Virus record (IMG/VR): IMGVR_UViG_2911215477_000001
Span: 38,486 to 102,485 of that record
DNA: 64,000 nt
DNA from: a virus
Lineage: Duplodnaviria; Heunggongvirae; Uroviricota; Caudoviricetes
Direction: 5' to 3' (one strand)
A program made the position numbers and the translations under genes. Below the pieces are notes generated by a model. The model saw only the letters and a list, made by a program, of their open reading frames with translations. It was not told where the DNA came from and did not search any database. Of this stretch, positions 1 through 61,870 are shown piece after piece (the stretch's first letter is position 1; each line of letters begins with the position of its first letter).

Positions 1-130
1 TTTCTTCCTATTTCGAGCCGGGTCTTCATTCCGGGATCAACGTAACTCTGAGCCGGGTATAATTCTCTACAGTAGCCCTTTAGTTATTAGTCCTGTAGAA
101 ACTAAAGAACTACGGTAAATAGAGGGAAAT

Positions 131-412
131 TCACGCCGGCTCCAGCGGTTCGATTCCCATAAGACGGAACCCTAGATCAGTGGGTTTCAGCAGTGACCGG
201 CTCCGGCTCCTGCGTATCTCCTTCCCATCCCGGATCACGTAGCCCTCTTCCAGCATGGGACGCAGCGTGCAGTGCATGCTCGCCTTCGACGTGACCCAGC
301 CGTACTGCACGACCAGGCTCTCAAGCAGCTGGTCGATGTCCAGGACGCTCCCATCGGGATTACCCCGGCACAGAAGCGTCATCACCTGTAGCTGCCGATT
401 CGTCATCTTCAT
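131..412 (-). CDS. small winged-HTH-like DNA-binding protein (start MKMTNRQ; ATGA overlap with upstream stop)
   Basis: ORF 131..454 trimmed to the ATG overlapping the upstream TGA; helix-rich, basic C-terminus; last gene of the coupled leftward operon. Confidence 0.45.
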   Translation of the reverse strand: MKMTNRQLQVMTLLCRGNPDGSVLDIDQLLESLVVQYGWVTSKASMHCTLRPMLEEGYVIRDGKEIRRSRSRSLLKPTDLGFRLMGIEPLEPA

Positions 413-1278
413 GGCAGGTTCTCCAATTTCAGCGGTTCGTCCGGACGCTGCCAATCGAAGGCTGCCAGAGGCAACCTGGTCGGGATCTCGCGTCCGTGAT
501 CAGGGTTTAGGTAGAAGCCATACATGGGCTGGGAGAACGCCAACTGGTTGAGGTTCTTCAGCAGCTCACGCGCCGGCATTGCGTCCACACGGGTCGTGCC
601 GTTCTCGCGGTTCTTGCCGGTCTTCTCCAGGCTGGAATGCTTGAAGTAGAACGTGCGCAGGTCGCTCAGGGCACGCTCCCTGTACGCTTCTGGCATCTTC
701 TCCAGCTCTTCGAGCAGTGCGACTTGATCGACAGGGTTGGAATCGAACCAGCGCGCATACAGACGCGATGCGGGGTCTTTCAGCTTCGGGGGTTCGGGCT
801 CGACGAACTGGAACCCAGCTCGATGAGCAAACTGGTTGAACTTCGACATGGACGACTGGATCTCGCACACACGCCGGCCATCAATGCGGGCAGCCAGGTT
901 GAGCATGCGGTATCCCACGCCCACGCCTCGGAACATGGTGTCGTTGACCGTGCGAGCGTTCAGCCCGAAGGTCCGGTTCAACCACTTGTAGCGGTAGGTG
1001 TTGGTGAGCTTGGTGTCCTGACCATCCGGTTTGATGTTCGGGAACGCCTTGTGACGGTCCCTGAGCAGCCCGCGTGGGTAGCACATGACGCACACACCCA
1101 CCAGGCGCGAGCCGATGCTCACGCGGTAGTAGCGAGCGCCCATGACGTGCCCTTCCGACTTGTAGTGGAACTCGTGCAGCTGAGCCCAGTCCTCGGCGGT
1201 GCCTGGCTCGATCACCATCTCGTGCAGCATCGGGAACGCGGGGCGTGCCGTGTCGTCGCGGGTTGCAATCCAGGTCAT
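409..1278 (-). CDS. GNAT-fold acyl-CoA N-acyltransferase-like protein with C-terminal extension
   Basis: Motif-A-like TVNDTMFRGVGVGYRML and preceding beta strands; start MTWIATR overlaps the upstream stop (gcATGAcc). Confidence 0.5.
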   Translation of the reverse strand: MTWIATRDDTARPAFPMLHEMVIEPGTAEDWAQLHEFHYKSEGHVMGARYYRVSIGSRLVGVCVMCYPRGLLRDRHKAFPNIKPDGQDTKLTNTYRYKWLNRTFGLNARTVNDTMFRGVGVGYRMLNLAARIDGRRVCEIQSSMSKFNQFAHRAGFQFVEPEPPKLKDPASRLYARWFDSNPVDQVALLEELEKMPEAYRERALSDLRTFYFKHSSLEKTGKNRENGTTRVDAMPARELLKNLNQLAFSQPMYGFYLNPDHGREIPTRLPLAAFDWQRPDEPLKLENLP

Positions 1279-1922
1279 GCCGGCAGCCACTCGTACTTGG
1301 TCAGGTCCACACGCTCGCCGTAGAGCTTCTCCACGGTGAGGGTCGGCCCGAGATACTTGGTCAGGTCCGTGTGCGTCGTCGCCACGACCAGGGTTGCACC
1401 ACGGGTGCGGGCAGCCTTGGAGATGTTGAACGCCACGATCTTGGCGGTCTCGCGGTCCAGCACGGCTGCGAACTCGTCAGCCACCCAGACATTCGCGCCC
1501 GACTCCAGCACTTTGGCTAGGCGGAAGCGGTAACGCTGACCATCGGACAGCTCAGAAGGCTTTCGCACCCATACGTAGGCGTCGTTCAAGCCGGCCTGGC
1601 TCATCAGCTCCAGTGCCTCGCGGGTGTCCGAGCCGATCTGATCAACCAGCGGGACATCCAGGAGGGGCACCTCGTCGATGGAGATGACGTTCTTGCCACC
1701 CTCGCGCAGCTGCTGGGCCACGTCGCGGAGCAACAGGGACTTGCCCGAGCCGGACTGGCCCGTGATGTAGAGGATGTCGCCGTCGTTGACCTCGATCTCC
1801 AGGTCTTCGTAGATCACAAAGCGCTTGTCGGAAAGACCGAGCCCAAAGGACTCGGCCACTTCCAACACGCGGCTGGATTTCTCAACGCGGGTGTCGAAGG
1901 ACTTGTTAACCCGCAGCAGCAT
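1275..1922 (-). CDS. soluble ABC-type ATPase (no TM domain)
   Basis: Walker A GQSGSGKS, ABC signature LSDGQRYR, Walker B VWVADEF, H-loop TTHTD; RBS GAGG. Confidence 0.6.
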   Translation of the reverse strand: MLLRVNKSFDTRVEKSSRVLEVAESFGLGLSDKRFVIYEDLEIEVNDGDILYITGQSGSGKSLLLRDVAQQLREGGKNVISIDEVPLLDVPLVDQIGSDTREALELMSQAGLNDAYVWVRKPSELSDGQRYRFRLAKVLESGANVWVADEFAAVLDRETAKIVAFNISKAARTRGATLVVATTHTDLTKYLGPTLTVEKLYGERVDLTKYEWLPA

Positions 1923-2601
1923 GGCCAGCCTCGATGTCCAGCATCAGCTCCTGGACGAACGCACCGAACGCTTCCCCACCCTTCTTGCCGGTCTTCATCT
2001 CGGCCTGGCCCTGGAATCGCGCCAGAGCACGCTCAAACGCGACAGGAAGCGCGCTGAAGCCCAGCACATGATTCACTGCGATGAACTGCGAGCGCTCTTC
2101 TGCGGGCTTCTCAGACGTGATGGTGACGGACGTGGTGCGGGCAGCTTCGATAGCGCCCACGAGGGACGAGGTATCGACTTCAGCCAGGTCGGTGAACAGG
2201 AACTCCAGCTCCTTGTCGTCGAAGCCGATGGTCTCCAGTTCGAAGCCTTCGTCCTTCAGCGAGTGCAGTTCGCTGTTGATCATGTCCACGTCGAAGTCAC
2301 CGAGGGCGACACGGTTGTCCGAGAGGCGCGCAGCCTTGGTCTGTGCCGGGGTCAGGTCACTGCGGACGATGACCGGGACTTCCTTCAGACCCAGATGGAT
2401 CGAAGCCAGGCGACGACCGTGGCCCTTGATGATCACGCCATCGGCGTCCACCACGATGGGCACGTCAAAGCCCTGGGTCTGGATGACCTTCGCCAGCGCC
2501 TCGACCTGGGCCGAGGTGTGGATCTTGGGGTTCTTGTCGTAGGGCTTGATGCGATCAATGGCCCACGATTCGATAGTTGGTTTGTACGGCTTCCCTGCCA
2601 T
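1906..2601 (-). CDS. ParB-like nuclease domain protein
   Basis: ParB N-terminal-domain motif IIKGHGRRLA, KP..K.H; start re-called at MAGKPYK with RBS CAGGAGC. Confidence 0.6.
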   Translation of the reverse strand: MAGKPYKPTIESWAIDRIKPYDKNPKIHTSAQVEALAKVIQTQGFDVPIVVDADGVIIKGHGRRLASIHLGLKEVPVIVRSDLTPAQTKAARLSDNRVALGDFDVDMINSELHSLKDEGFELETIGFDDKELEFLFTDLAEVDTSSLVGAIEAARTTSVTITSEKPAEERSQFIAVNHVLGFSALPVAFERALARFQGQAEMKTGKKGGEAFGAFVQELMLDIEAGHAAAG

Positions 2602-2614
2602 AACAGCTCCTGAG

Positions 2615-3274
2615 TTAATCCTTCTGGCTCCAGTTGGAGCAGAGATAGACGAGTGCGTCGCCGGCATTGGCCAGGGAGTCCTGTCCCGTAAAGCCCTGCC
2701 GCTTCATCACCGCCTCCATGATTCGGGTCACACGATCCGCGTCTTCGAGGGGAACCTTGAAGCGCATCATCTGGTGCGTCTGAGGTGCCGACGTCACCTC
2801 ATCCATCGGGCTGGGCTCCTCGGGTTTGGAGAAGCTCAGATCGAGTTCCAGGTCCAGCGAGTCCAGGTCGATGGAATCGCTCTGGAAGATCTCTTTGAGG
2901 TCGTTGTCGCTGAAGGGCATGAACTCGGTCACGTCGCCTTCGATGTCCTTGAGCAGGCTCGACAGCTTCAGCGTGTCTTCCAGCCCGTAGTGACGGTTAT
3001 CGACAACGGCAATCTCCTTCGCACGCTTGTCGTCAATCGGACCAAGGTTGTAGACGTCGATCTGGTCGTAGCCGATGGCAATCGCTGCGCGGGTCGTGTG
3101 CTCGCCGGCAATGACTTCCAGCTCGCCTGTCGGTAGCTCGCGCACAACGACGGGGCGGAACAGACCATTGCGGCGAATGCTCTCTTCCAGTCGTCGCTGG
3201 TTGTCCGGGGAGACGTGATTCGCGTTCCACGGACTGAATTGCAGATTTTTTGGATCAACGCACTGCGTTTTCAC
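2615..3274 (-). CDS. ParB-like N-terminal domain protein with acidic C-terminus
   Basis: EVIAGEHTTRAA ParB-like motif; first gene after the divergent promoter motif at 3285. Confidence 0.5.
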   Translation of the reverse strand: MKTQCVDPKNLQFSPWNANHVSPDNQRRLEESIRRNGLFRPVVVRELPTGELEVIAGEHTTRAAIAIGYDQIDVYNLGPIDDKRAKEIAVVDNRHYGLEDTLKLSSLLKDIEGDVTEFMPFSDNDLKEIFQSDSIDLDSLDLELDLSFSKPEEPSPMDEVTSAPQTHQMMRFKVPLEDADRVTRIMEAVMKRQGFTGQDSLANAGDALVYLCSNWSQKD

Positions 3275-3284
3275 TCAAACGTCC

Positions 3285-3308
3285 TGTATAATATGTATGT
3301 CCATACAT
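3285..3308. promoter_or_regulatory. family-A motif TGTATAATATGTATGTCCATACAT (extended -10 plus palindrome) in a divergent intergenic region
   Basis: TGTATAAT followed by a GTATG..CATAC inverted repeat; between minus gene 3274 and plus gene 3345. Confidence 0.5.
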
Positions 3309-3344
3309 AGTCTAAGGCTTATAGGGAAGCGCCACAAGGCAAAC

Positions 3345-4850
3345 ATGAACGTCAAGATCGCAATGAATGCGGTCGTCGCCAAGCTGATCACGGATGATCG
3401 CGAACTGAAGCTGGCTGTATCCGACCTCCTCTCCTACAACGTCGCGGGCGCTGAGCACTCTCAGTCGTTCCAGACGGGCGGTTGGTCGGGTCGTTCCACT
3501 CTCTTCAGCTATGGCACTTCGACCTTCCCTGCTGGCCTGGTCAGCATGGTCTACACCTGGCTGAAGCAGAAGGGCTACAACCCGCAGCTCATCCGGAAGC
3601 CTGCCCCTGAACCTCTGGGCAAGCCCGAACCCATCGTCAACGAGTTCGGCAAGTCCGAGGCATACGACTACCAGTACGAGGCTGTCCGGCAGCTCATCCG
3701 TCACCGCGCCATCATCGCCCAGGTCGCAACGGGCGGTGGTAAGTCGAACATCGCCTCCATCGCGGTGGGCTGGATCAAGCGCCCGACCCTCTTCCTGACG
3801 ACGCGCAAGGTGCTCATGCACCAGATGAAGCGCACGTTCCAGAAGTCGCTGAAGTGGCGCGCTCGCAACGGTGAGCCCGAGATGGCCGGCGTGAAGGTCG
3901 GTGTCATGGGCGACAGCGAGTTCAACCCTCGCAAGCACATCAACGTCGGCATGGTGCAGACCATCATGGCCAAGCTGACGTCGGACGACCCGAAGGTGGT
4001 CGCCCAGATGAAGGCAATCCTCGCCATGTTCGAATTCGTGATCCTCGAAGAGGCCCACGAGTCCAGCGGTGGCGGCTACTACGAGATCATGGGCAACTGC
4101 ACCAACGCCCACTATCGCCTGGCGCTGACGGCTACCCCGTTCATGCGTGAGGACGAAGAAGCGAACATGCGCTTGATGGCGTGTTCGGGACCGATCGCCA
4201 TCCACATCACGGAGAAGATGCTGATCGACCGTGGCGTGCTTGCCCGGCCCGAGTTCAAGTTCATCACGCCTCCGCAGAGCCAGAAGGTCCGTCGCAACAG
4301 CGACTGGCAGCGCTCCTACAACTACGGGATCGTCAACAACGAGGCTCGCAACGGGATCATCATCGCGGAATCGACGCGAGCTGCCCGTAACAGCCTGTCC
4401 GTGATGATTCTGGTGCAGCGCCAGGAGCACGGCAACAACCTGGAAGCCCAGCTCAAGGAAGCCGGTGTCCGCGCCCGCTTCATCTTCGGTAAGTCCGAGC
4501 AGGACGAGCGCGACGAAGCCCTCGCCTCCCTGATGTCCGGTGAGCTTCAGGTGCTGATCGGCTCGACCATCCTCGACGTGGGTGTGGACGTGCCGGCAGT
4601 GGGCATGGTGATCCTCGCAGGCGGTGGCAAGGCGGAAGTCGCCCTTCGTCAGCGCATCGGTCGAGGACTGCGAAAGAAGCCTGCTGGCATGCCGAACGTC
4701 GCCTACATCATCGACTTCATGGATGCCATCAACAAACACCTGGTCGGTCATGCCGCCCAGCGTCGTCAGATCATCGAATCCACCCCTGGATTCGCGGAAA
4801 ACATCCTGCCTTCTGGCAGGGACTTCAGCTTTACCTACAAACTCAAGTGA
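3345..4850 (+). CDS. SF2 DEAD/DEAH-box DNA helicase
   Basis: Walker A ATGGGKS, DEAH-like LEEAHE, SAT-like LTATP, motif VI QRIGRGLR. The ORF-track start MSIH is the promoter palindrome read as coding, so the start was moved to MNVKIAM. Confidence 0.8.
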   Translation: MNVKIAMNAVVAKLITDDRELKLAVSDLLSYNVAGAEHSQSFQTGGWSGRSTLFSYGTSTFPAGLVSMVYTWLKQKGYNPQLIRKPAPEPLGKPEPIVNEFGKSEAYDYQYEAVRQLIRHRAIIAQVATGGGKSNIASIAVGWIKRPTLFLTTRKVLMHQMKRTFQKSLKWRARNGEPEMAGVKVGVMGDSEFNPRKHINVGMVQTIMAKLTSDDPKVVAQMKAILAMFEFVILEEAHESSGGGYYEIMGNCTNAHYRLALTATPFMREDEEANMRLMACSGPIAIHITEKMLIDRGVLARPEFKFITPPQSQKVRRNSDWQRSYNYGIVNNEARNGIIIAESTRAARNSLSVMILVQRQEHGNNLEAQLKEAGVRARFIFGKSEQDERDEALASLMSGELQVLIGSTILDVGVDVPAVGMVILAGGGKAEVALRQRIGRGLRKKPAGMPNVAYIIDFMDAINKHLVGHAAQRRQIIESTPGFAENILPSGRDFSFTYKLK

Positions 4851-4858
4851 GGAAGAAC

Positions 4859-5170
4859 ATGGAACAGAAGATCGAGACCCAGAGCGAGCGCAAGACCCTG
4901 ATGGTGGACGAGAAGACCTACGACAAGGTGTCGGCGGCTGCCAAGCGTGGCGGTTCCGGTGTCACCCGTGGTGTCGTGGTCGCCGCCCTGATCGACCTGG
5001 TGGGTCAGGACCAGCTGGATCGCAAGCTGGCCGAAATCGCTGCCGAGGCGAAGGCTGCCCGCGAGAAGAAGTCCGAGCAGCGCTCCAAGCTGTCGGAGCT
5101 GGCCGAGGTGCTGAGCCCGGCTGAGATCGAAGCCCTGCTGCGCCAGGCGCGTCAGCGTCAGGGCAGTTAA
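4859..5170 (+). CDS. hypothetical coiled/Ala-rich small protein
   Basis: RBS GAGGAAG before ATG; charged helical composition. Confidence 0.4.
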   Translation: MEQKIETQSERKTLMVDEKTYDKVSAAAKRGGSGVTRGVVVAALIDLVGQDQLDRKLAEIAAEAKAAREKKSEQRSKLSELAEVLSPAEIEALLRQARQRQGS

Positions 5171-5200
5171 CGTCTCTTGAACTTGGGGTTTTGCGCGTGC

Positions 5201-5224
5201 TGTATAATATGTATGCGCATACAT
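5201..5224. promoter_or_regulatory. family-A motif TGTATAATATGTATGCGCATACAT
   Basis: Near-identical to the 3285 copy; upstream of the lysin gene. Confidence 0.5.
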
Positions 5225-5261
5225 CACGCGCATCACCCCAAGCAACAAGAGGCAATATGTT

Positions 5262-5744
5262 TTGGTATCTACACTCTCTTTCCTTCTACGGACTGCCGTA
5301 GCGCTCACCTCCCTCAATCCCCAACCTACGCAGGCTGAAATGCACTGCATGTCCGTCACCGCATACGCTGAAGCTCGCGGTGAAGGTGTTGAAGGGATGG
5401 CCCTGGTGGTCGAATCCCTCCTCCAACGAAAGCAGATGACCGGGCAGGACGCCTGCTCCATCGCCAATCGCTACTACGACGGCTTCAAACTGATGAAGCG
5501 TCGCCCCTCTCCAGCCAAAACGGATACCGAGAACTGGATCCGTGCAAGCGCAGTCACCGCGCTCACCGTCAATGGCGCCATCAACCTGGGCAGCTGCTCG
5601 GGCGCAACCCACTTCTATCGCAAGCTTCCAGGTCGCCGGGCACCCTACTGGGCCAAGCCGGAGCATCGCGTGTGCAAGTTGGGCAACCACATCGCCTATC
5701 GCTACGTCATGCGCCCCGCTGTGCAAGGTCAGGTTGCAGGGTGA
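5262..5744 (+). CDS. SleB-type cell wall hydrolase (putative endolysin), TTG start
   Basis: AYAEARGEGVEGMALV matches the cell-wall-hydrolase (SleB) family motif; RBS AAGAGG; N-terminal hydrophobic segment. Confidence 0.6.
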   Translation: MVSTLSFLLRTAVALTSLNPQPTQAEMHCMSVTAYAEARGEGVEGMALVVESLLQRKQMTGQDACSIANRYYDGFKLMKRRPSPAKTDTENWIRASAVTALTVNGAINLGSCSGATHFYRKLPGRRAPYWAKPEHRVCKLGNHIAYRYVMRPAVQGQVAG

Positions 5745-5807
5745 ACGCATAGGGAGGGGTAACACCCCTTCCTAGACTGCGCTTACCACAACAACGGAGA
5801 CACCCAG

Positions 5808-6302
5808 ATGCCAAGGAAGGCTAAGGGCAACAAGAAAGACCAGGCACCACCCAAGCCTGTCAGCATCATCACGCTCCGGTCGAGCAGTCGCGGGTATCAC
5901 ACCGAGGCTTTGCTGTGGGCCAGCCAGGAAGACATGATCCGCGCCCTCAGTGTCTACAGTGCAACGCCGGCCAACGTCGGGGCTGCGTTCGTAGGCTTCT
6001 CGCGCAAGGAGAAGAAGGCCAAGTGGGGCAAGCTGCCCTCCAGCGCTCTCCTGGGCGAGTTCCACTTCTACGTGGGCGGCTGGGACATCGAAATCGTTTC
6101 GCACGAAGTCACCCATTCCGCCATCCATCGCATGCGTGTGCTCGACCCCGATGGTGAGGATGTCCTGGACGATGGCGTTGCTGCTGACGGGGAGCCCCTG
6201 GAAGAAGTGATCGCCTACGAGTCGGGCTTCTGGACGAGCGACATCCATCGCTGGCTGTCTACGACTGATCCAACTGAACGCCCGGTTGATCACGGGCGCT
6301 AA
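5808..6302 (+). CDS. hypothetical protein
   Basis: RBS GGAGA; basic N-terminus; no recognisable domain. Confidence 0.45.
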   Translation: MPRKAKGNKKDQAPPKPVSIITLRSSSRGYHTEALLWASQEDMIRALSVYSATPANVGAAFVGFSRKEKKAKWGKLPSSALLGEFHFYVGGWDIEIVSHEVTHSAIHRMRVLDPDGEDVLDDGVAADGEPLEEVIAYESGFWTSDIHRWLSTTDPTERPVDHGR

Positions 6303-34155: not shown

Positions 34156-35400
34156 TCAAAGTTCCCGGAGGTAAGCCCCGAGTTTGTCCGCCCCGCCTAC
34201 CAGCTTCCCGTTGTGAAGGATCTGGGGAACGCTGCGTGCGCCCGTCTGCTCGTAGAACTTGGCCCGTTCAGCGTCATCGTCCAGGCTGATTTCAGTCCAG
34301 GTGATGCCCTTCTGCTTGAGCATGTTCTTGGCCATCGTGCAATAGGGGCAGATGGTCTTCGTGTAGACGATCCACTCCGGCTTTGCCGAGACGACCGGCT
34401 CGTCCAGCTCCGCGAACACGTCGCCCCAGGTGCCCTGGGTGGCAGCCTTGGCATACTCGGTGCCACGCTGTTCGAAGAAGTTGACGTGCTCCACCGCGTT
34501 CAGCATTTCGTCCAGCCACGGCAGCGGGTTCTCCTTCACCTTGAAGATGCCCTTGTAGCCCAGCTGGATCAGGCGACGGTCTGCGATGTAGCGGATGTAC
34601 TGCTTGATTTCCTCGGCAGTCATGCCCTTCACGCCACCCATTTCGAACGCCAGGTCGATGAAGGCGTCCTCGTGGGCAACCACGTCACGGCATGCCTGCT
34701 CGATCTGAGCCCGCAGCTGTGCGTCGTTGACCTCGGGGTTCTCGCGCAGGACATCGTGGAACAGCCGGATGATGTTCTCGCAGTGGTGCGACTCGTCACG
34801 AACCGACCAGGTGATGATCTGGCCCATGCCCTTCATCTTGTTGAAGCGCGGGAAGTTCAGCAGCATGGCGAACGAGGCGAACAGCTGGAGACCCTCGGTG
34901 AAGGCACCGAAGACAGCCATCGACAGAGCCAGCTCACGCACGTCCTTCGGCTCGTAGAAGCCCTGGAGATACTCCCACTTCTCCTTCATTTCGCGATACT
35001 TGAGGAACGCCTCGTACTCCACTTCCGGCAGACCCAGCGTGTCGATCAGATGGGAGTAAGCCGCGATGTGAATCGTCTCCATGTTGTTGAAGGCGTTCAG
35101 CATCATCTGGATCTCGGTGGGCTTGAACCACTTCAGATACAGGCTGTGGTAGCTCTTGCTGATCTCCACGTCCGACTGCACGAAGAAACGGAAGATGTGG
35201 TTGAGCAGGTTCTGTTCGGACGGGCTCAGGTTGCGACGCCAGTCCTGCACGTCGTCAGCCATCGGCACCTCTTCGGGTAGCCAGTGCATCTTCTGCTGGG
35301 TGTGCCAAGCCTCGTAGGCCCACGGGAAGGAGAACGGCTTGTAGGCCGTCCTCTCAGTGAACAGGGTCTTCCCTGCAGGGATGGTGGGGTTGTAGGTCAC
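34156..35400 (-). CDS. nrdB: class I ribonucleotide reductase beta subunit fused to C-terminal glutaredoxin
   Basis: Di-iron ligand contexts (EE..H), C-terminal CPYC glutaredoxin (VYTKTICPYCTMAK); GTG start overlapping the upstream TGA. Confidence 0.8.
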   Translation of the reverse strand: MTYNPTIPAGKTLFTERTAYKPFSFPWAYEAWHTQQKMHWLPEEVPMADDVQDWRRNLSPSEQNLLNHIFRFFVQSDVEISKSYHSLYLKWFKPTEIQMMLNAFNNMETIHIAAYSHLIDTLGLPEVEYEAFLKYREMKEKWEYLQGFYEPKDVRELALSMAVFGAFTEGLQLFASFAMLLNFPRFNKMKGMGQIITWSVRDESHHCENIIRLFHDVLRENPEVNDAQLRAQIEQACRDVVAHEDAFIDLAFEMGGVKGMTAEEIKQYIRYIADRRLIQLGYKGIFKVKENPLPWLDEMLNAVEHVNFFEQRGTEYAKAATQGTWGDVFAELDEPVVSAKPEWIVYTKTICPYCTMAKNMLKQKGITWTEISLDDDAERAKFYEQTGARSVPQILHNGKLVGGADKLGAYLREL

Positions 35401-36032
35401 AGCGAGAACCTCAGAGCAGCGCGAGCCACAGCACGGAAGATGATGTCCTTCACCTTCTGCACTTCCGGAAGTTCGTCGTAGCTCACGAGGCACGGGTGCG
35501 TCTTCGCCTCAGAGTCCTTGACGGGGCCATAGACCCAGCCCTCAGCGATCTTCTGAGCGCTCCAACTCGCATGCAGCTCCACCGGGGACAGACCCGACTT
35601 CGCAGCGAGCACGCCATTGCGAGCGCTTTCCTTCTGCCAGGCGGGTGCGATGGACCAGGGCACCTGGCTCTCGTCACCGATGCTGATGCAGTATTCGCGA
35701 TTGGCTTCGTGTGCCATGCGCGCCGCGTTCTCGTACTGGAACGCCTGCTTGTTGCAGAGCTGATAGCCCTCCAGCGCCCAGATCTTCCGGATCGCATCCT
35801 TGCGTGCCAGCGTTCGGCCCAGGTCAGCGTCGAAGTTCGCAGGCGACGCGCATGCGCTCTCGCCCGTGACGGTGAAGCCGTTGCGCAGCTTCAGGGTGCA
35901 GATCGTCAGCGTAGTGCCCTCGGGGACGTAGTAGTCCTCCTTGGAGACCAAACCCTCGATATGCTTCTCAGTGACACGCGGGGCGTCCAAGCCCTTTGCT
36001 GCCAGATAGTCGTGAATTTCCTGCTCGTTCAT
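35397..36032 (-). CDS. Gp49-like (Phage_gp49_66) plus RyR-domain protein
   Basis: TICTLKLRNGFTVTGESACASPANFD..G..A...A..W.LEGY fits the family; C-terminal HASWSAQKIAEGWVYG..KTHPCLVSYDELPE is RyR-domain-like. Confidence 0.5.
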   Translation of the reverse strand: MNEQEIHDYLAAKGLDAPRVTEKHIEGLVSKEDYYVPEGTTLTICTLKLRNGFTVTGESACASPANFDADLGRTLARKDAIRKIWALEGYQLCNKQAFQYENAARMAHEANREYCISIGDESQVPWSIAPAWQKESARNGVLAAKSGLSPVELHASWSAQKIAEGWVYGPVKDSEAKTHPCLVSYDELPEVQKVKDIIFRAVARAALRFSL

Positions 36033-53883: not shown

Positions 53884-53951
53884 TTTGCTTCTCCATTCGT
53901 TCCATCATGTGAGCACATCGTTTGTATGTATGTGCTCACATATTATACCCG

Positions 53952-59761: not shown

Positions 59762-61870
59762 TCAGGTAACAACGATTTTCTTGAGCAGTGCCAGGATGCG
59801 CTCCGGGATCTCCTCGACGCGACCGATGACCTCGGCGTTCTTGTAGAACTCCTTGACGGAGTGATCCATCAAGCCAAGGCCGTAGATCTCCAGTCCAGCA
59901 CGCTCCATCTCCTTGATGACCTTCTTCAGGTGGGAGCCGAGACCGTGCGCGCAGTAAGCAGCGGGTGCGCCATCGGACATGACGATCATCACCTTTCGTG
60001 CTTCCTTCTGGGCAACCAGGCGAGTCGCTGCCTGTTCGATAGATTCACCATCGACGTTGTTGCGGAGGATGCCGTAAAGCTCGGGCATGTATGCCAGCGC
60101 TTTCTTCTGGGAGTCGTTGAAGCGCTCCTTGAACTCCTTCAGGACGTAGAGTGCGAGCGGTTCCACGCGACCGTATTTGAAGCCACCTGTGCCGCCTTCC
60201 CAGATCGCCTTGTAGACCTCGCCTGCTCGTTTGAAGCCCAGCGAGTCCGCAATGCGGTCGTCGAGCGTGGAGAACGCCACGATTTCACAAGCCACGCCGA
60301 TGCGTTGCAGCAGGGTCGCGAAGATATAGGCAGCGACGCACGCAGCTTCGATCTTGCCACCGGACATTGAGCCCGAAGCGTCGATGACCAGCTGCACTGC
60401 GACCGACTTGGTAGTGGTCTCTAGCTTCGTGCGGAACACGCGGTCGTCGCCAGAGATCAGCTTGTGCAGTCCAGCTCGATGGAGCTTGCCCTTCTTCTGG
60501 GCAGGCAACCAACGGGCAGCACTGCGGGCGCGGAACACACGCTCGACCTCGGACTGAAGACCCGGCGACATGCTTTCCGCCTGGCGGGGAATCTTGCTTC
60601 CGGAGAGGGTCTTCCCGTCCCACTGGTTCGGGTAGGGCAGCCTGCCGACGTAATCCCCGTCTCGACTGTAGGGCAGATACTTGCTGGGCGACTTCGAAAG
60701 GTGCGCAGCCAGGTCAGACGAGATTGCCTCGGACATGGTGTCATCCATGTCCTTCACATCATCGGTGTCGAACGCTGCGACGGCGGACTCTTCACGCGAA
60801 TGTCCACCAAGACCGCCCGTGCCTTCGTTCGGCTCGTCGTCCTCTTCCTCTTCTTCGTCCTCGTCGTCGTAGTCGTCAGCACCCGTGCCGCCGTCTCCGT
60901 CACCCTCGCCGTCACCGCCCTCGCCTTCCCTGGAGTCCTCACCCTCTTCGGACTCGTCCTTCTTTTCCTCGGACTCTTCCTCGTCACCACCCTCACCCTC
61001 TTCGGACTCTTCGGGCTTCTCTTCGGGCTTGGGCTTTTCCTTCTTCTCGGGCTTGGACTTCTCGCCCTCTTCCTCTTCGGATTTCTTTGCGGGCTTGCCG
61101 GACTTGGTGCCGGAGCTGGACGACTTACCACCGCCCTTGCCCGACGCAGACTTTTTCTTCCCACCGCCACCGGAGTCACCCGGCTCGCCTTCACCCTCGG
61201 ACTCTTCGGACTCTTCGTGCATGGCATCGAAGATCGCCTGGGCGACGCTGACAGCGGTCGTGGTGGAGTTGACGGACTTGATCTCCTTCTCCATCGACTG
61301 CAGCACGGTTCCGACCTTCCCCATCAACGGCCACTTGCCGTCCATGAAGTTCGCGAACTCGGTGTAGCCATAGAGCGCACGGATCGCAGCTGCAATGAGG
61401 ATGCCGGCGAACTTGTACTGATCGGCACCTGCTGCGACTGCCTTCTCGTAGGTGGGAGCGATCATGCGGCTGATCGCGAAGATGCGCGTGTCGCCCAGGT
61501 TGCGGCCCGACCCGTAGAACTTGTCGGCCATGCGCTTCTCGATCATGCAGTCTTCGAGAATGTTCCAATAGGCGTGCTTCTCTTCGCTCTTGCCCTTCTT
61601 GTGCAGCTCCTTGATGACGTAAGCCATGTCGGTGAAGAGCAGATGCGCGACCTCGTGATCCAAGAAGCCCTGGATCGCAATCATCAGATCGCGGGGTGCA
61701 TCATCGGGAAGCGACGGCAGGGTCACGCACTGCGGCTGACCGTCTTTGTTGTACGCGACGTGGGCCTTCAGACCCTCCTGGCGGACTTCGATGTTCGAAT
61801 CCGTCAGGGCGCGAGTGACTCGCCCAATCGTCTCGCGCAGATACTGCACATCCTGCAAACCAGTGGCCAT
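59762..61870 (-). CDS. CobT-like vWA-domain protein with long acidic low-complexity linker
   Basis: MIDAS motif VIDASGSM; E/D/G-rich region of about 150 aa. Confidence 0.6.
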   Translation of the reverse strand: MATGLQDVQYLRETIGRVTRALTDSNIEVRQEGLKAHVAYNKDGQPQCVTLPSLPDDAPRDLMIAIQGFLDHEVAHLLFTDMAYVIKELHKKGKSEEKHAYWNILEDCMIEKRMADKFYGSGRNLGDTRIFAISRMIAPTYEKAVAAGADQYKFAGILIAAAIRALYGYTEFANFMDGKWPLMGKVGTVLQSMEKEIKSVNSTTTAVSVAQAIFDAMHEESEESEGEGEPGDSGGGGKKKSASGKGGGKSSSSGTKSGKPAKKSEEEEGEKSKPEKKEKPKPEEKPEESEEGEGGDEEESEEKKDESEEGEDSREGEGGDGEGDGDGGTGADDYDDEDEEEEEDDEPNEGTGGLGGHSREESAVAAFDTDDVKDMDDTMSEAISSDLAAHLSKSPSKYLPYSRDGDYVGRLPYPNQWDGKTLSGSKIPRQAESMSPGLQSEVERVFRARSAARWLPAQKKGKLHRAGLHKLISGDDRVFRTKLETTTKSVAVQLVIDASGSMSGGKIEAACVAAYIFATLLQRIGVACEIVAFSTLDDRIADSLGFKRAGEVYKAIWEGGTGGFKYGRVEPLALYVLKEFKERFNDSQKKALAYMPELYGILRNNVDGESIEQAATRLVAQKEARKVMIVMSDGAPAAYCAHGLGSHLKKVIKEMERAGLEIYGLGLMDHSVKEFYKNAEVIGRVEEIPERILALLKKIVVT

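What the first reader, a model, noticed from the sequence alone, without database searches (positions are those of the whole stretch)
131..3274. Five-gene translationally coupled leftward operon: ParB-like, ParB-like, soluble ABC ATPase, GNAT-fold protein, small wHTH
All five junctions are stop-start overlaps (ATGA or a 17-nt overlap), implying stoichiometric co-expression from the divergent family-A promoter at 3285. The combination of two ParB/sulfiredoxin-like nuclease-domain proteins with a transporter-less ABC ATPase and an enlarged GNAT acyltransferase (289 aa, motif A RGVGVGY) does not correspond to a phage module I recognise. It could be a partition/segrosome-like system, a DNA-modification or anti-restriction system, or a defence/anti-defence cassette. 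Soluble ABC ATPases and ParB-like nucleases are recurrent in defence islands.
Basis: partly seen in the sequence, partly recalled or inferred. Interest (0 to 1): 0.6.

Follow-up and report, generated by a model that had tools for sequence, protein, structure and literature searches.

The report
Phage ParB–ABC–GNAT module beside terminase
The five genes are real and form a conserved core block of a large family of phages and phage-plasmids (including the Yersinia pestis pMT1 type); its ATPase plus acyltransferase pair was predicted years ago to put an unknown acyl mark on phage DNA, but nobody has tested this.

Summary
The five leftward genes exist as described: ParB-like (2615-3274), ParB-like (1906-2601), soluble ABC ATPase (1275-1922), GNAT-fold protein (409-1278) and a small probable winged-helix protein (131-412). 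Three of the four junctions overlap. The first is a 13-nt spacer with a Shine-Dalgarno site.

The promoter-like motif at 3285 points rightward, toward the helicase, not into the operon.

The block is not an accessory cassette. With the divergent DEAD-box helicase on one side and terS/terL on the other, gene order is invariant in 31 of the 33 relatives examined; the other two contigs are too short to tell. These relatives include SSU5-type phage-plasmids, Pseudomonas phage nickie, and Rhizobium and Stenotrophomonas phages. The GNAT gene occurs in 967 PLSDB plasmids.

The ABC and GNAT genes are a split form of a widespread viral fusion protein (the COG2401 type, by record names). That fusion also sits next to the large terminase in archaeal viruses and in Gordonia, Leptospira and Heliorestis phages.

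Iyer et al. (2013, as cited in their 2021 paper) already predicted this ABC-GNAT pairing to acylate a DNA base. It is therefore a new member of a predicted but untested kind.

A partition role is rejected, and no known defence system matches. The function remains inferred (about 0.45).

The parts
2615..3274 (-). g1, ParB1: a 219-aa ParB/Srx-fold (ParB_N) protein with no recognisable HTH domain. GTG start, preceded by AGGA.
   Evidence: Pfam ParB_N E = 1.2e-10. PHROG 723 E = 5e-59. Noc/ParB structures E = 7e-7, N-terminal domain only. TIGR00180 score 32 against a cutoff of 58. The family consensus keeps GGEHR and DN.RYG motifs. NCBI calls the same 219-aa gene.
1906..2601 (-). g2, ParB2: a 231-aa ParB/Srx-fold protein. 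It is closest to the N-terminal ParB module of phage ParB-methyltransferase fusions. ATG at 2601, with AGGAG 7 nt upstream.
   Evidence: PHROG 930 E = 1e-64. PHROG 498 'DNA methyltransferase' E = 4e-41, N-terminal part only. PADLOC MTase_II E = 2e-24, positions 7-144 of 436. Pfam ParB_N E = 5e-5. GHGRR and R..DNR motifs are conserved. It shares 23% identity with g1 over 158 aa.
1275..1922 (-). g3: a 215-aa stand-alone ABC-type ATPase (a nucleotide-binding domain only). It overlaps g2 by 17 nt.
   Evidence: Pfam ABC_tran E = 1.6e-12. PHROG 293 E = 1.6e-42. PDB hits are ABC nucleotide-binding domains. The motifs GQSGSGKS, LSDGQ, VW.ADEF and ATTH are conserved across 32 orthologues. In other viruses it is fused to the g4-type domain.
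409..1278 (-). g4: a 289-aa protein with an N-terminal GNAT acyltransferase fold (~1-165; motif A is RGVGVGY at 117-123) and a conserved C-terminal helical domain of unknown fold (~165-289). ATGA overlap with g3.
131..412 (-). g5: a 93-aa small basic protein, probably a MarR/PadR-like winged helix. ATGA overlap with g4. It is the last gene of the operon.
   Evidence: PHROG 900, E = 1e-11, function unknown. Orthologues hit HTH_27 (E = 3e-6), PadR and MarR_2. The family profile hits MarR/PadR structures at E 0.04-0.09. tblastn detects it in only about half of the relatives, but a small ORF occupies this position in most of them.
3275..3344 (.). Divergent control region between g1 and the helicase. 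It contains a 29-nt element (3280-3308): an extended -10-like TGTATAAT plus the inverted repeat ATGTATG/CATACAT.
   Evidence: The element recurs at 5196-5224 (90% identical, + strand) and partly at 53939-53949. It is oriented rightward. No consensus sigma-70 promoter was found for the leftward operon.
3345..4850 (+). Divergently transcribed DEAD/ResIII superfamily-2 helicase (UvsW-like, 501 aa). It is an invariant syntenic neighbour of the module.
   Evidence: PHROG 16 DNA helicase E = 1e-83. Pfam DEAD, ResIII and Helicase_C on the NCBI gene. It is present and divergent in 31 of 33 related loci.
1..130 (.). Start of the 338-bp intergenic gap that separates g5 from the terS-like and terL genes, which lie just outside the window.
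   Evidence: Source-genome context: after g5 come a 215-aa terS-like gene, TerL (Terminase_6N) and a 533-aa protein in the portal position. Nickie, ANB28, SSU5 and RHph_N1_10 have the same arrangement.

Best explanation
The operon most likely encodes a phage DNA-modification machine that acts on newly made phage DNA around the time of packaging.

Shown:
- g3 and g4 are the two halves of a widespread viral 'ABC ATPase + GNAT acyltransferase' protein.
- Both ParB proteins have the ParB/Srx NTP-binding fold but no recognisable HTH DNA-binding domain.
- The block is a fixed core part of SSU5/nickie-type phages, lying between a helicase and the terminase genes.

Inferred mechanism:
- The two ParB paralogues, possibly as a heterodimer, act as nucleotide-dependent DNA-loading or activating partners. 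Precedents are the ParB module of phage ParB-methyltransferases, DpdB for DpdA, and the ParB that activates phage thymine dioxygenases.
- ATP-driven dimerisation of the ABC domain brings GNAT subunits onto DNA and gives them access to a base.
- The GNAT domain transfers an acyl or aminoacyl group from a CoA thioester to an exocyclic amine of a base. This would be a Mom-like reaction of unknown chemistry.
- The mark protects packaged DNA from host restriction.
- The small winged-helix protein regulates the operon or adds DNA specificity.
For: 1. ABC and GNAT are functionally linked.
- A profile of g4 finds 1025 relatives. Many are 450-560 aa with an N-terminal ABC_tran domain and a C-terminal g4-like domain.
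- The fusion P0168 aligns across g3 plus g4 of nickie and SSU5 (96% coverage). It also hits the ABC gene of Tenacibaculum phage pT24, the phage Iyer et al. gave as their example (H72).

2. The enzyme looks active.
- g4 has a GNAT fold with an intact motif A and many invariant residues.
- Remote members reach Pfam Acetyltransf_1.
- The ATPase motifs are all conserved.

3. Published prediction. [quoted passage not shown] 2013.

4. ParB as a partner of DNA-modifying enzymes.
- g2 matches the ParB part of ParB-methyltransferase fusions.
- A phage ParB without a DNA-binding domain activates a thymine dioxygenase (PMC13229309).
- ParB-fold fusions to methyltransferases and acetyltransferases exist (PMC12704722).
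- DpdB is a ParB-like ATPase whose activity drives insertion of preQ0 into DNA in the DpdA system (PMC12839542).
- ParB plus ABC-GNAT lying just before the terminase gene recurs in Gordonia phage Sisko and Leptospira phage LE4. Streptococcus phage Javan511 has ParB plus the ABC ATPase there, but no GNAT gene was found.

5. Links to DNA transactions.
- The block is immediately upstream of terS/terL here and in all SSU5-type relatives examined.
- The fused gene lies directly downstream of TerL in at least 43 of 80 IMG/VR loci.
- Elsewhere it sits between DnaB and Pol III alpha or is fused to a family-B DNA polymerase (P0188).

6. Neighbouring group-transfer enzymes in other phages suggest a multi-step chemical modification: Formyl_trans_N in Sisko, and Amidoligase_2 plus GGACT in the Heliorestis prophage.
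Against: - There is no direct evidence that DNA is the substrate.
- The C-terminal domain of g4 gives no clue.
- ParB proteins are absent near the fused gene in archaeal-type viral loci (2 of 80), so ParB is not essential to the core enzyme.
- Adjacency to the terminase fits a packaging or virion-protein role equally well.
- In the papers found here, nobody reports unusual bases in SSU5-type or nickie-type phage DNA.
- The 2013 paper that made the prediction could not be read here. Its reasoning is known only through the 2021 citation.
Confidence: 0.45

Rival explanations
1. Packaging or late-assembly accessory. The ABC-GNAT enzyme acetylates a protein of the packaging or virion machinery (terminase, portal, capsid or a DNA-condensing factor), or a polyamine that is co-packaged with the DNA. 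The ParB proteins and the winged-helix protein organise the DNA substrate or the pac region for the terminase.
For: - The module shows a very strong and ancient linkage to the terminase: upstream of terS/terL in all SSU5-type genomes examined and directly downstream of TerL in at least 43 of 80 archaeal-type viral loci.
- The best structural matches of g4 include N-terminal protein acetyltransferases (RimI, NatA) and polyamine acetyltransferases.
- It behaves as a core gene rather than an accessory gene.
Against: - No known tailed-phage packaging system needs an acetyltransferase or an ABC ATPase (established knowledge).
- In some phages the gene sits in the replication module or is fused to a DNA polymerase.
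- Neighbouring formyltransferase and amidoligase genes point to small-group chemistry.
- The closest kin of g2 are ParB modules of DNA methyltransferases.
Confidence: 0.2
2. Host-takeover or anti-defence enzyme that does not act on phage DNA. The GNAT acylates a host molecule (tRNA or aminoacyl-tRNA, RNA polymerase, an immune signalling nucleotide or a defence protein), with the ABC ATPase and ParB-fold NTPases as cofactors.
For: - The variable gaps inside the module carry accessory genes such as a DUF2829 protein in Rhizobium phages.
- An ATPase plus a GNAT is the design of the tRNA cytidine acetyltransferase TmcA (own knowledge).
Against: - Invariant synteny and core status across very distant phages are unlike fast-evolving anti-defence genes.
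- The position next to late and packaging genes argues against an early takeover role.
- There are no PADLOC matches.
- There are no tRNA genes in the window.
Confidence: 0.15
3. Partition/segrosome system for the plasmid-prophage state, built from two ParB homologues and an ABC ATPase in place of ParA.
For: - Many carriers are ~100-120 kb phage-plasmids.
- Two ParB_N proteins and an ATPase are present.
- RefSeq phage records name the two genes 'ParB-like partition protein'.
Against: - SSU5 has a separate ParA-like locus.
- There is no ParA in the operon, and both ParB proteins lack the HTH and dimerisation domains and score below the TIGR00180 cutoff.
- The block is equally conserved in nickie, isolated as a free phage from wastewater, in a chromosomally integrated prophage (this window), and, as the ABC-GNAT core, in archaeal proviruses.
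- A partition role does not explain the GNAT partner.
Confidence: 0.05
4. GNAT-toxin/antitoxin or superinfection-exclusion cassette (g4 as toxin, g5 as winged-helix antitoxin) that has hitch-hiked in the phage.
For: - g4 and g5 are translationally coupled (ATGA overlap).
- The pairing of a GNAT with a small DNA-binding protein resembles TacAT/AtaRT modules (own knowledge).
Against: - g4 is much larger than GNAT toxins and has a unique C-terminal domain.
- It is obligately linked or fused to an ABC ATPase.
- g5 lies downstream of g4 and is poorly conserved.
- There are no PADLOC or NCBIfam toxin hits.
Confidence: 0.03

Closest known systems
ABC ATPase-GNAT predicted DNA-base acylation system (Iyer, Zhang, Burroughs and Aravind 2013, NAR 41:7635, as cited in Iyer et al. 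2021, Viruses 13:63; named COG2401/MK0520 'ABC-type ATPase fused to a predicted acetyltransferase domain' in some records)
   Same: - It has the same two domains. The fused proteins align over g3 plus g4 (96% coverage in nickie and SSU5).
- The same search hits the ABC gene of the cited example phage, Tenacibaculum phage pT24.
- The context is a phage or prophage.
   Different: - Here the two domains are separate, translationally coupled genes.
- They are embedded with two ParB paralogues and a winged-helix gene in a fixed helicase-to-terminase block.
- The kind is only a computational prediction. No activity, product or phenotype is known.
Mom of phage Mu (a GNAT-fold enzyme that makes N6-carbamoylmethyl-adenine in DNA)
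   Same: - It is a phage-encoded GNAT-fold enzyme.
- It is expressed with the late genes (own knowledge).
   Different: - g4 shows no specific sequence or structure affinity to Mom beyond the shared fold.
- Mom works without an ABC ATPase or a ParB partner.
- g4 has an extra 125-residue domain.
ParB-assisted DNA-modifying enzymes: phage ParB-dependent thymine dioxygenases (PMC13229309), ParB-methyltransferase fusions (PMC12704722) and DpdB-DpdA (as described in PMC12839542)
   Same: - A ParB-fold protein without an HTH domain is encoded next to, or fused to, a DNA-modifying enzyme in a phage.
- g2 matches the ParB part of ParB-methyltransferases (PHROG 498, E = 4e-41).
   Different: - The partner enzyme here is an ABC ATPase-GNAT pair, not a dioxygenase, methyltransferase or transglycosylase.
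- There are two diverged ParB paralogues instead of one.
- Nucleotide binding and activation were not tested.
ParABS partition cassette
   Same: The ParB N-terminal (CTPase-fold) domain is present, and the operon includes an ATPase.
   Different: - There is no ParA.
- There is no HTH or C-terminal dimerisation domain.
- Both ParB proteins score below the family cutoffs.
- The block occurs in phages that are not plasmids.

Membership tests
ABC ATPase-GNAT predicted DNA acyl-modification system (Iyer et al. 2013/2021; COG2401 type) | An ABC-type ATPase domain fused to, or encoded directly beside, a distinct GNAT-clade domain | tested here: met
   - g3 hits ABC_tran, and g4 has a GNAT fold.
- The two genes overlap by ATGA.
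- A g4 profile retrieves hundreds of ABC+GNAT fusions.
- The fusion P0168 covers g3 plus g4 of SSU5 and nickie at 96%.
ABC ATPase-GNAT predicted DNA acyl-modification system (Iyer et al. 2013/2021; COG2401 type) | Homology to the published example in Tenacibaculum phage pT24 | tested here: inconclusive
   P0168 hits the pT24 'ABC transporter ATP-binding' gene (H72, E = 8e-14, ABC part only). The GNAT part of pT24 was not aligned to g4 directly.
ABC ATPase-GNAT predicted DNA acyl-modification system (Iyer et al. 2013/2021; COG2401 type) | Acyl modification of a DNA base | not testable with these tools
   This needs nucleoside mass spectrometry or enzyme assays. No report was found in the library.
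ParABS partition system | An adjacent ParA (Walker-type or actin-type) ATPase gene | tested here: not met
   No ParA family matches any of the five proteins. SSU5 carries its ParA-like gene about 30 kb away.
ParABS partition system | A full-length ParB with an N-terminal domain, an HTH DNA-binding domain and a dimerisation domain (TIGR00180 above cutoff) | tested here: not met
   TIGR00180 scores are 32.4 and 25.7 against a cutoff of 58.45. PDB ParB and Noc structures align only over the N-terminal ~70 residues.
ParABS partition system | parS centromere repeats bound by ParB | not tested
   The repeat search of 1-6000 found no obvious array, but no specific parS search was made.
Mom (momylation) family | Specific membership of the Mom clade within the GNAT superfamily | tested here: not met
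ABC transporter | A partner permease or transmembrane domain, and g4 being an ATP-binding subunit as database names state | tested here: not met
   None of the five proteins hits a permease or transmembrane family (no dedicated transmembrane-segment prediction was run). g4 has no ABC domain and a GNAT fold instead. The name comes from the fused family.
Known anti-phage defence systems (PADLOC) | Match of the component set to a described system | tested here: not met
   Only generic hits were found: the MTase_II N-terminus for g1 and g2, and P-loop models for g3. Nothing was found for g4 or g5.
GNAT superfamily | The GNAT fold with the beta4-alpha3 pyrophosphate-binding motif (R/Q-x-x-G-x-G/A) | tested here: met

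The most novel reading that the evidence does not exclude
The module makes a chemically new acyl or aminoacyl mark on a DNA base. The reaction would be ATP-dependent and ParB-assisted, and would occur on phage DNA just before packaging. The same enzyme core would be shared by about a thousand sequenced Enterobacterales and Acinetobacter phage-plasmids (including the Yersinia pestis pMT1 type), many soil-bacterium phages and archaeal tailed viruses.
Probability: 0.35. Interest if true: 0.8.

Novelty: new member of a known kind. Interest (0 to 1): 0.5.

Why it matters
If the prediction is right, a whole class of DNA modification has gone unexamined. It would be as widespread as the ABC-GNAT gene: 967 plasmids in PLSDB, 361 stretches in IMG/VR and more than 2000 proteins in metagenomes.

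Carriers include clinically common phage-plasmids of Klebsiella, E. coli, Acinetobacter, Salmonella and Yersinia pestis.

A modification of this kind would affect restriction evasion, phage-therapy host range and sequencing-based modification calling.

The module would also be a further case of the ParB NTPase fold serving a DNA-modifying enzyme.

Even if the substrate is not DNA, a core, terminase-linked ATPase-acyltransferase shared by bacterial and archaeal tailed viruses has no known role, and it is easy to test.

A practical point: database names for these genes ('ABC transporter ATP-binding subunit', 'ParB-like partition protein', 'DNA methyltransferase') are misleading.

Tried and rejected
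- NCBIfam and Pfam gave nothing for g4 or g5.
- A PDB sequence-profile search for g4 gave nothing.
- PADLOC gave no system-level match.
- The AlphaFold-database fold library was unavailable.
- The C-terminal domain of g4 was modelled alone, confidently, but has no PDB fold match (Z max 4.0). It gives no clue to the substrate.
- A search for ParB-GNAT(g4-type) fusions among shorter profile hits found only truncated ABC+GNAT fragments.
- A search for ParB genes near the fused ABC-GNAT in 80 IMG/VR loci found ParB-like ORFs in only 2. ParB is therefore an add-on in bacterial phages, not part of the universal core.
- The idea of a tRNA acetyltransferase (TmcA-like) was raised because nickie has tRNA genes near the helicase. 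The window has no tRNA genes, so nothing supports it.
- Literature searches for COG2401, 'ABC-type ATPase fused' and SSU5+ParB+ABC found nothing.
- The 2013 paper that made the original prediction is not held.
- The partition, toxin-antitoxin and defence-island readings were considered and rejected for the reasons given under the rival explanations.


Full report
**1. Observation**

The region 131-3274 holds five co-directional minus-strand genes. Their boundaries agree exactly with the NCBI gene calls of the source genome, the Dyella telluris chromosome CP060412.1.

| Gene | Coordinates | Length | Start |
|---|---|---|---|
| g1 | 2615-3274 | 219 aa | GTG |
| g2 | 1906-2601 | 231 aa | ATG |
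| g3 | 1275-1922 | 215 aa | ATG |
| g4 | 409-1278 | 289 aa | ATG |
| g5 | 131-412 | 93 aa | ATG |

There are four junctions, not five.
- g2/g3 overlap by 17 nt.
- g3/g4 overlap by ATGA.
- g4/g5 overlap by ATGA.
- g1/g2 do not overlap. A 13-nt spacer carrying AGGAG separates them.

The 'family-A promoter at 3285' is a real repeated element. The sequence CGTCCTGTATAATATGTATGTCCATACAT lies at 3280-3308. It recurs at 5196-5224 with 90% identity, and partly at 53939-53949.
- Both full copies are on the + strand, so the -10-like TGTATAAT points toward the helicase and not into the five-gene operon.
- The consensus scan finds no sigma-70 promoter on either strand in 1-5400.
- The helicase most likely starts at 3345 (501 aa). 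This leaves a divergent control region of about 70 nt.

**2. What the proteins are**

- g1 has a ParB N-terminal domain: Pfam E = 1.2e-10, PHROG 723 E = 5e-59.
- g2 is a diverged paralogue, 23% identical to g1 over 158 aa. Its best matches are PHROG 930 (E = 1e-64) and the N-terminal part of phage ParB-methyltransferase fusions (PHROG 498 E = 4e-41; PADLOC MTase_II E = 2e-24).
- Both align with solved ParB and Noc structures only over the N-terminal nucleotide-binding fold. Both fall well below the ParB/RepB/Spo0J family cutoff. Their orthologue families keep GGEHR / DN.RYG (g1) and GHGRR / R..DNR (g2) motifs.
- g3 is a minimal ABC nucleotide-binding domain with all catalytic motifs conserved.
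- Residues ~165-289 of g4 form a highly conserved helical domain. Modelled alone it has no structural match (Z max 4.0).
- g5 is weakly supported as a MarR/PadR-type winged helix, through its orthologues.

**3. Context and conservation**

The window is part of an integrated prophage. Its other genes include DNA polymerase, SbcCD, a UvsX-like recombinase and ribonucleotide reductase.

In the source genome a 338-bp gap follows g5. Then come a terS-like gene, TerL (Terminase_6N), a 533-aa protein in the portal position and the head genes.

tblastn with g4 finds the gene in 31 phage records:
- Stenotrophomonas phages ANB28 and BUCTxx99 (66% identity, the closest);
- Pseudomonas phage nickie and its kin;
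- SSU5-type phage-plasmids of Salmonella, Escherichia and Klebsiella;
- Rhizobium RHEph10-type phages;
- Xanthomonas phage JGB6.

The gene is also found in 30 species genomes, many on contigs of 100-118 kb, including Yersinia pestis, Kluyvera, Xenorhabdus and Morganella. It occurs in 967 PLSDB plasmids, mostly ~100-120 kb and non-mobilizable.

In the 31 of 33 loci with enough flank, the order is invariant: helicase (divergent) | ParB1 | ParB2 | ABC | GNAT (| small gene). Variable gaps hold extra small genes in some lineages.

This is therefore a core block of the phage supergroup, not a movable island. SSU5 has its ParA-like gene about 30 kb away.

**4. The ABC-GNAT pair is a split form of a widespread viral protein**

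- A profile of g4 searched against 1.84 billion representative proteins finds 1025 relatives. Many are 450-560 aa, with an N-terminal ABC_tran domain and a C-terminal g4-like domain.
- A search with one such fusion (P0168) returns more than 2000 proteins. Many come from Bathyarchaeia, Nitrososphaeria and Methanocella, and some from Firmicutes. Sources often name them 'ABC-type ATPase with predicted acetyltransferase domain'.
- P0168 aligns over g3 plus g4 of nickie and SSU5 at 96% coverage.
- Unusual architectures include a family-B DNA polymerase + ABC + GNAT fusion, an intein inside the ABC domain, and a TFIIB-repeat fusion.

Contexts of the fused gene:
- A Heliorestis prophage has ABC-GNAT, Amidoligase_2, GGACT, TerL and portal in that order.
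- A Bathyarchaeia provirus has TerL directly followed by ABC-GNAT.
- A metagenomic phage has it between DnaB/DHH and Pol III alpha.
- IMG/VR holds 361 stretches that encode it. In the 80 best loci the upstream same-strand neighbour is a large terminase in at least 43. In 32 loci the gene's 3' end lies within 400 bp of the contig end.
- Among isolated phages, Gordonia phage Sisko has ParB-like, ABC-GNAT, a formyltransferase-family gene and terminase as genes 1-4.
- Leptospira phage LE4 has ParB-like and ABC-GNAT genes, then three small genes, then TerL.
- Streptococcus phage Javan511 has ParB_N and an ABC ATPase upstream of TerL, but no GNAT gene was identified there.
- ParB genes are rare near the archaeal-type fused gene: 2 of 80 loci.

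**5. What is known**

[quoted passage not shown] They cite Iyer et al. 2013 (NAR 41:7635) and give Tenacibaculum phage pT24 as an example. P0168 hits the pT24 ABC gene. The 2013 paper is not held.

I found no experimental work on this system.

There are independent precedents for ParB-fold proteins serving DNA-modifying enzymes:
- Phage ParB proteins lacking a DNA-binding domain activate cognate thymine dioxygenases (PMC13229309).
- The ParB fold is often fused to methyltransferases in phages, and to an acetyltransferase in a bacterium (PMC12704722).
- DpdB is a ParB-like ATPase whose activity drives insertion of preQ0 into DNA in the DpdA system (as described in PMC12839542).

**6. Most likely mechanism**

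Shown:
- domain identities;
- the split-versus-fused relation of g3 and g4;
- the core synteny;
- the linkage to the terminase and, in some phages, to replication genes.

Inferred:
- g3 and g4 form an ATP-dependent acyltransferase that acts on DNA.
- g1 and g2 load or activate it on phage DNA.
- The product is an acylated base that protects packaged DNA.
- g5 regulates the operon or adds specificity.

I put about 0.45 on this explanation.

The main rival, at about 0.2, is a packaging or virion-protein (or polyamine) acetylation role. It explains the terminase linkage equally well. It explains less well the polymerase fusion, the replication-module contexts and the kinship of g2 with methyltransferase ParB modules.

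The other rivals are weaker:
- a non-DNA host target, about 0.15;
- partition, about 0.05;
- toxin-antitoxin or defence, about 0.03.

**7. Novelty and verdict**

The finding is real.

The module is not unknown as a kind. Its ABC-GNAT core was predicted in 2013 to modify DNA, so I rate it a new member of a known (predicted) kind.

What this analysis adds:
- the fixed five-gene SSU5-type form, with two ParB paralogues and a split enzyme;
- its presence in about a thousand sequenced plasmids;
- the cross-domain linkage of the ABC-GNAT gene to the large terminase.

I did not find these three points stated in the papers I could read.

Interest is moderate (0.5). The kind is already predicted, but it is widespread, untested and easy to test.

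Noticed in passing
window 3280-3308, 5196-5224 (+), 53939-53949 (-): A 29-nt element (extended -10-like TGTATAAT plus the 7-bp inverted repeat ATGTATG/CATACAT) occurs twice on the + strand at 90% identity, with a third partial copy. It looks like a promoter-operator family for rightward early or replication genes.
   Followed up: partly
window 3297-4850: The longest helicase ORF starts at 3297, only 5 nt after the TATAAT box. The NCBI call and a nearby AAGG site favour the ATG at 3345 (501 aa).
   Followed up: yes
whole window; L123: The window is 100% identical to the Dyella telluris chromosome CP060412.1 (4.99 Mb). This SSU5/nickie-type element is therefore chromosomally integrated, whereas most relatives are ~100-120 kb extrachromosomal phage-plasmids or free phages.
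   Followed up: partly
P0188, P0180, P0164 (remote homologues of g4): Unusual architectures of the ABC-GNAT protein: a family-B DNA polymerase + ABC + GNAT fusion (1260 aa), an intein with a LAGLIDADG domain inside the ABC domain, and a C-terminal TFIIB repeat.
   Followed up: no
L039-L118 (IMG/VR loci): In 32 of 80 viral contigs the 3' end of the ABC-GNAT gene lies within 400 bp of the contig end. None has the gene's 5' end near a contig start. The gene may mark a provirus or genome boundary next to TerL, or the pattern may be an artefact of provirus trimming.
   Followed up: no
L124 5133-5435 (Rhizobium phage RHph_N1_10); L001 5681-5935 (SSU5_128); L002 4168-4329 and 5646-5981 (nickie): The gaps between the module's genes hold lineage-specific small genes. 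One example is a DUF2829 protein between ABC and GNAT in Rhizobium phages; from my own knowledge, that is the family of the Thoeris anti-defence protein Tad2. The window's copy is the most compact form seen.
   Followed up: partly
L119 1814-2464 (Gordonia phage Sisko gene 3); L034 9534-11338 (Heliorestis prophage): Group-transfer enzymes sit between ABC-GNAT and the terminase in other phages. One is a Formyl_trans_N protein annotated as 'tRNA-methyltransferase'. The others are an Amidoligase_2 and GGACT pair.
   Followed up: partly
window 409-1278 and its homologues in RefSeq phage records: g4-type proteins are annotated 'ABC transporter ATP-binding subunit' (PHROG 886), although they have no ABC domain. 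nickie's ParB2 is annotated 'DNA methyltransferase', and Javan511's ParB_N protein 'DNA modification methylase'. These names were carried over from fused relatives.
   Followed up: yes
window 34156-35493 (-): The ribonucleotide reductase small subunit appears to carry a C-terminal thioredoxin-like domain (PHROG 22 at residues 375-445).
   Followed up: no
window 59762-61870 (-): A 702-aa protein of PHROG 1576 (function unknown) has a CobT-like C-terminus. SSU5 carries two genes annotated 'porphyrin biosynthesis'; their relation to this protein was not checked.
   Followed up: no
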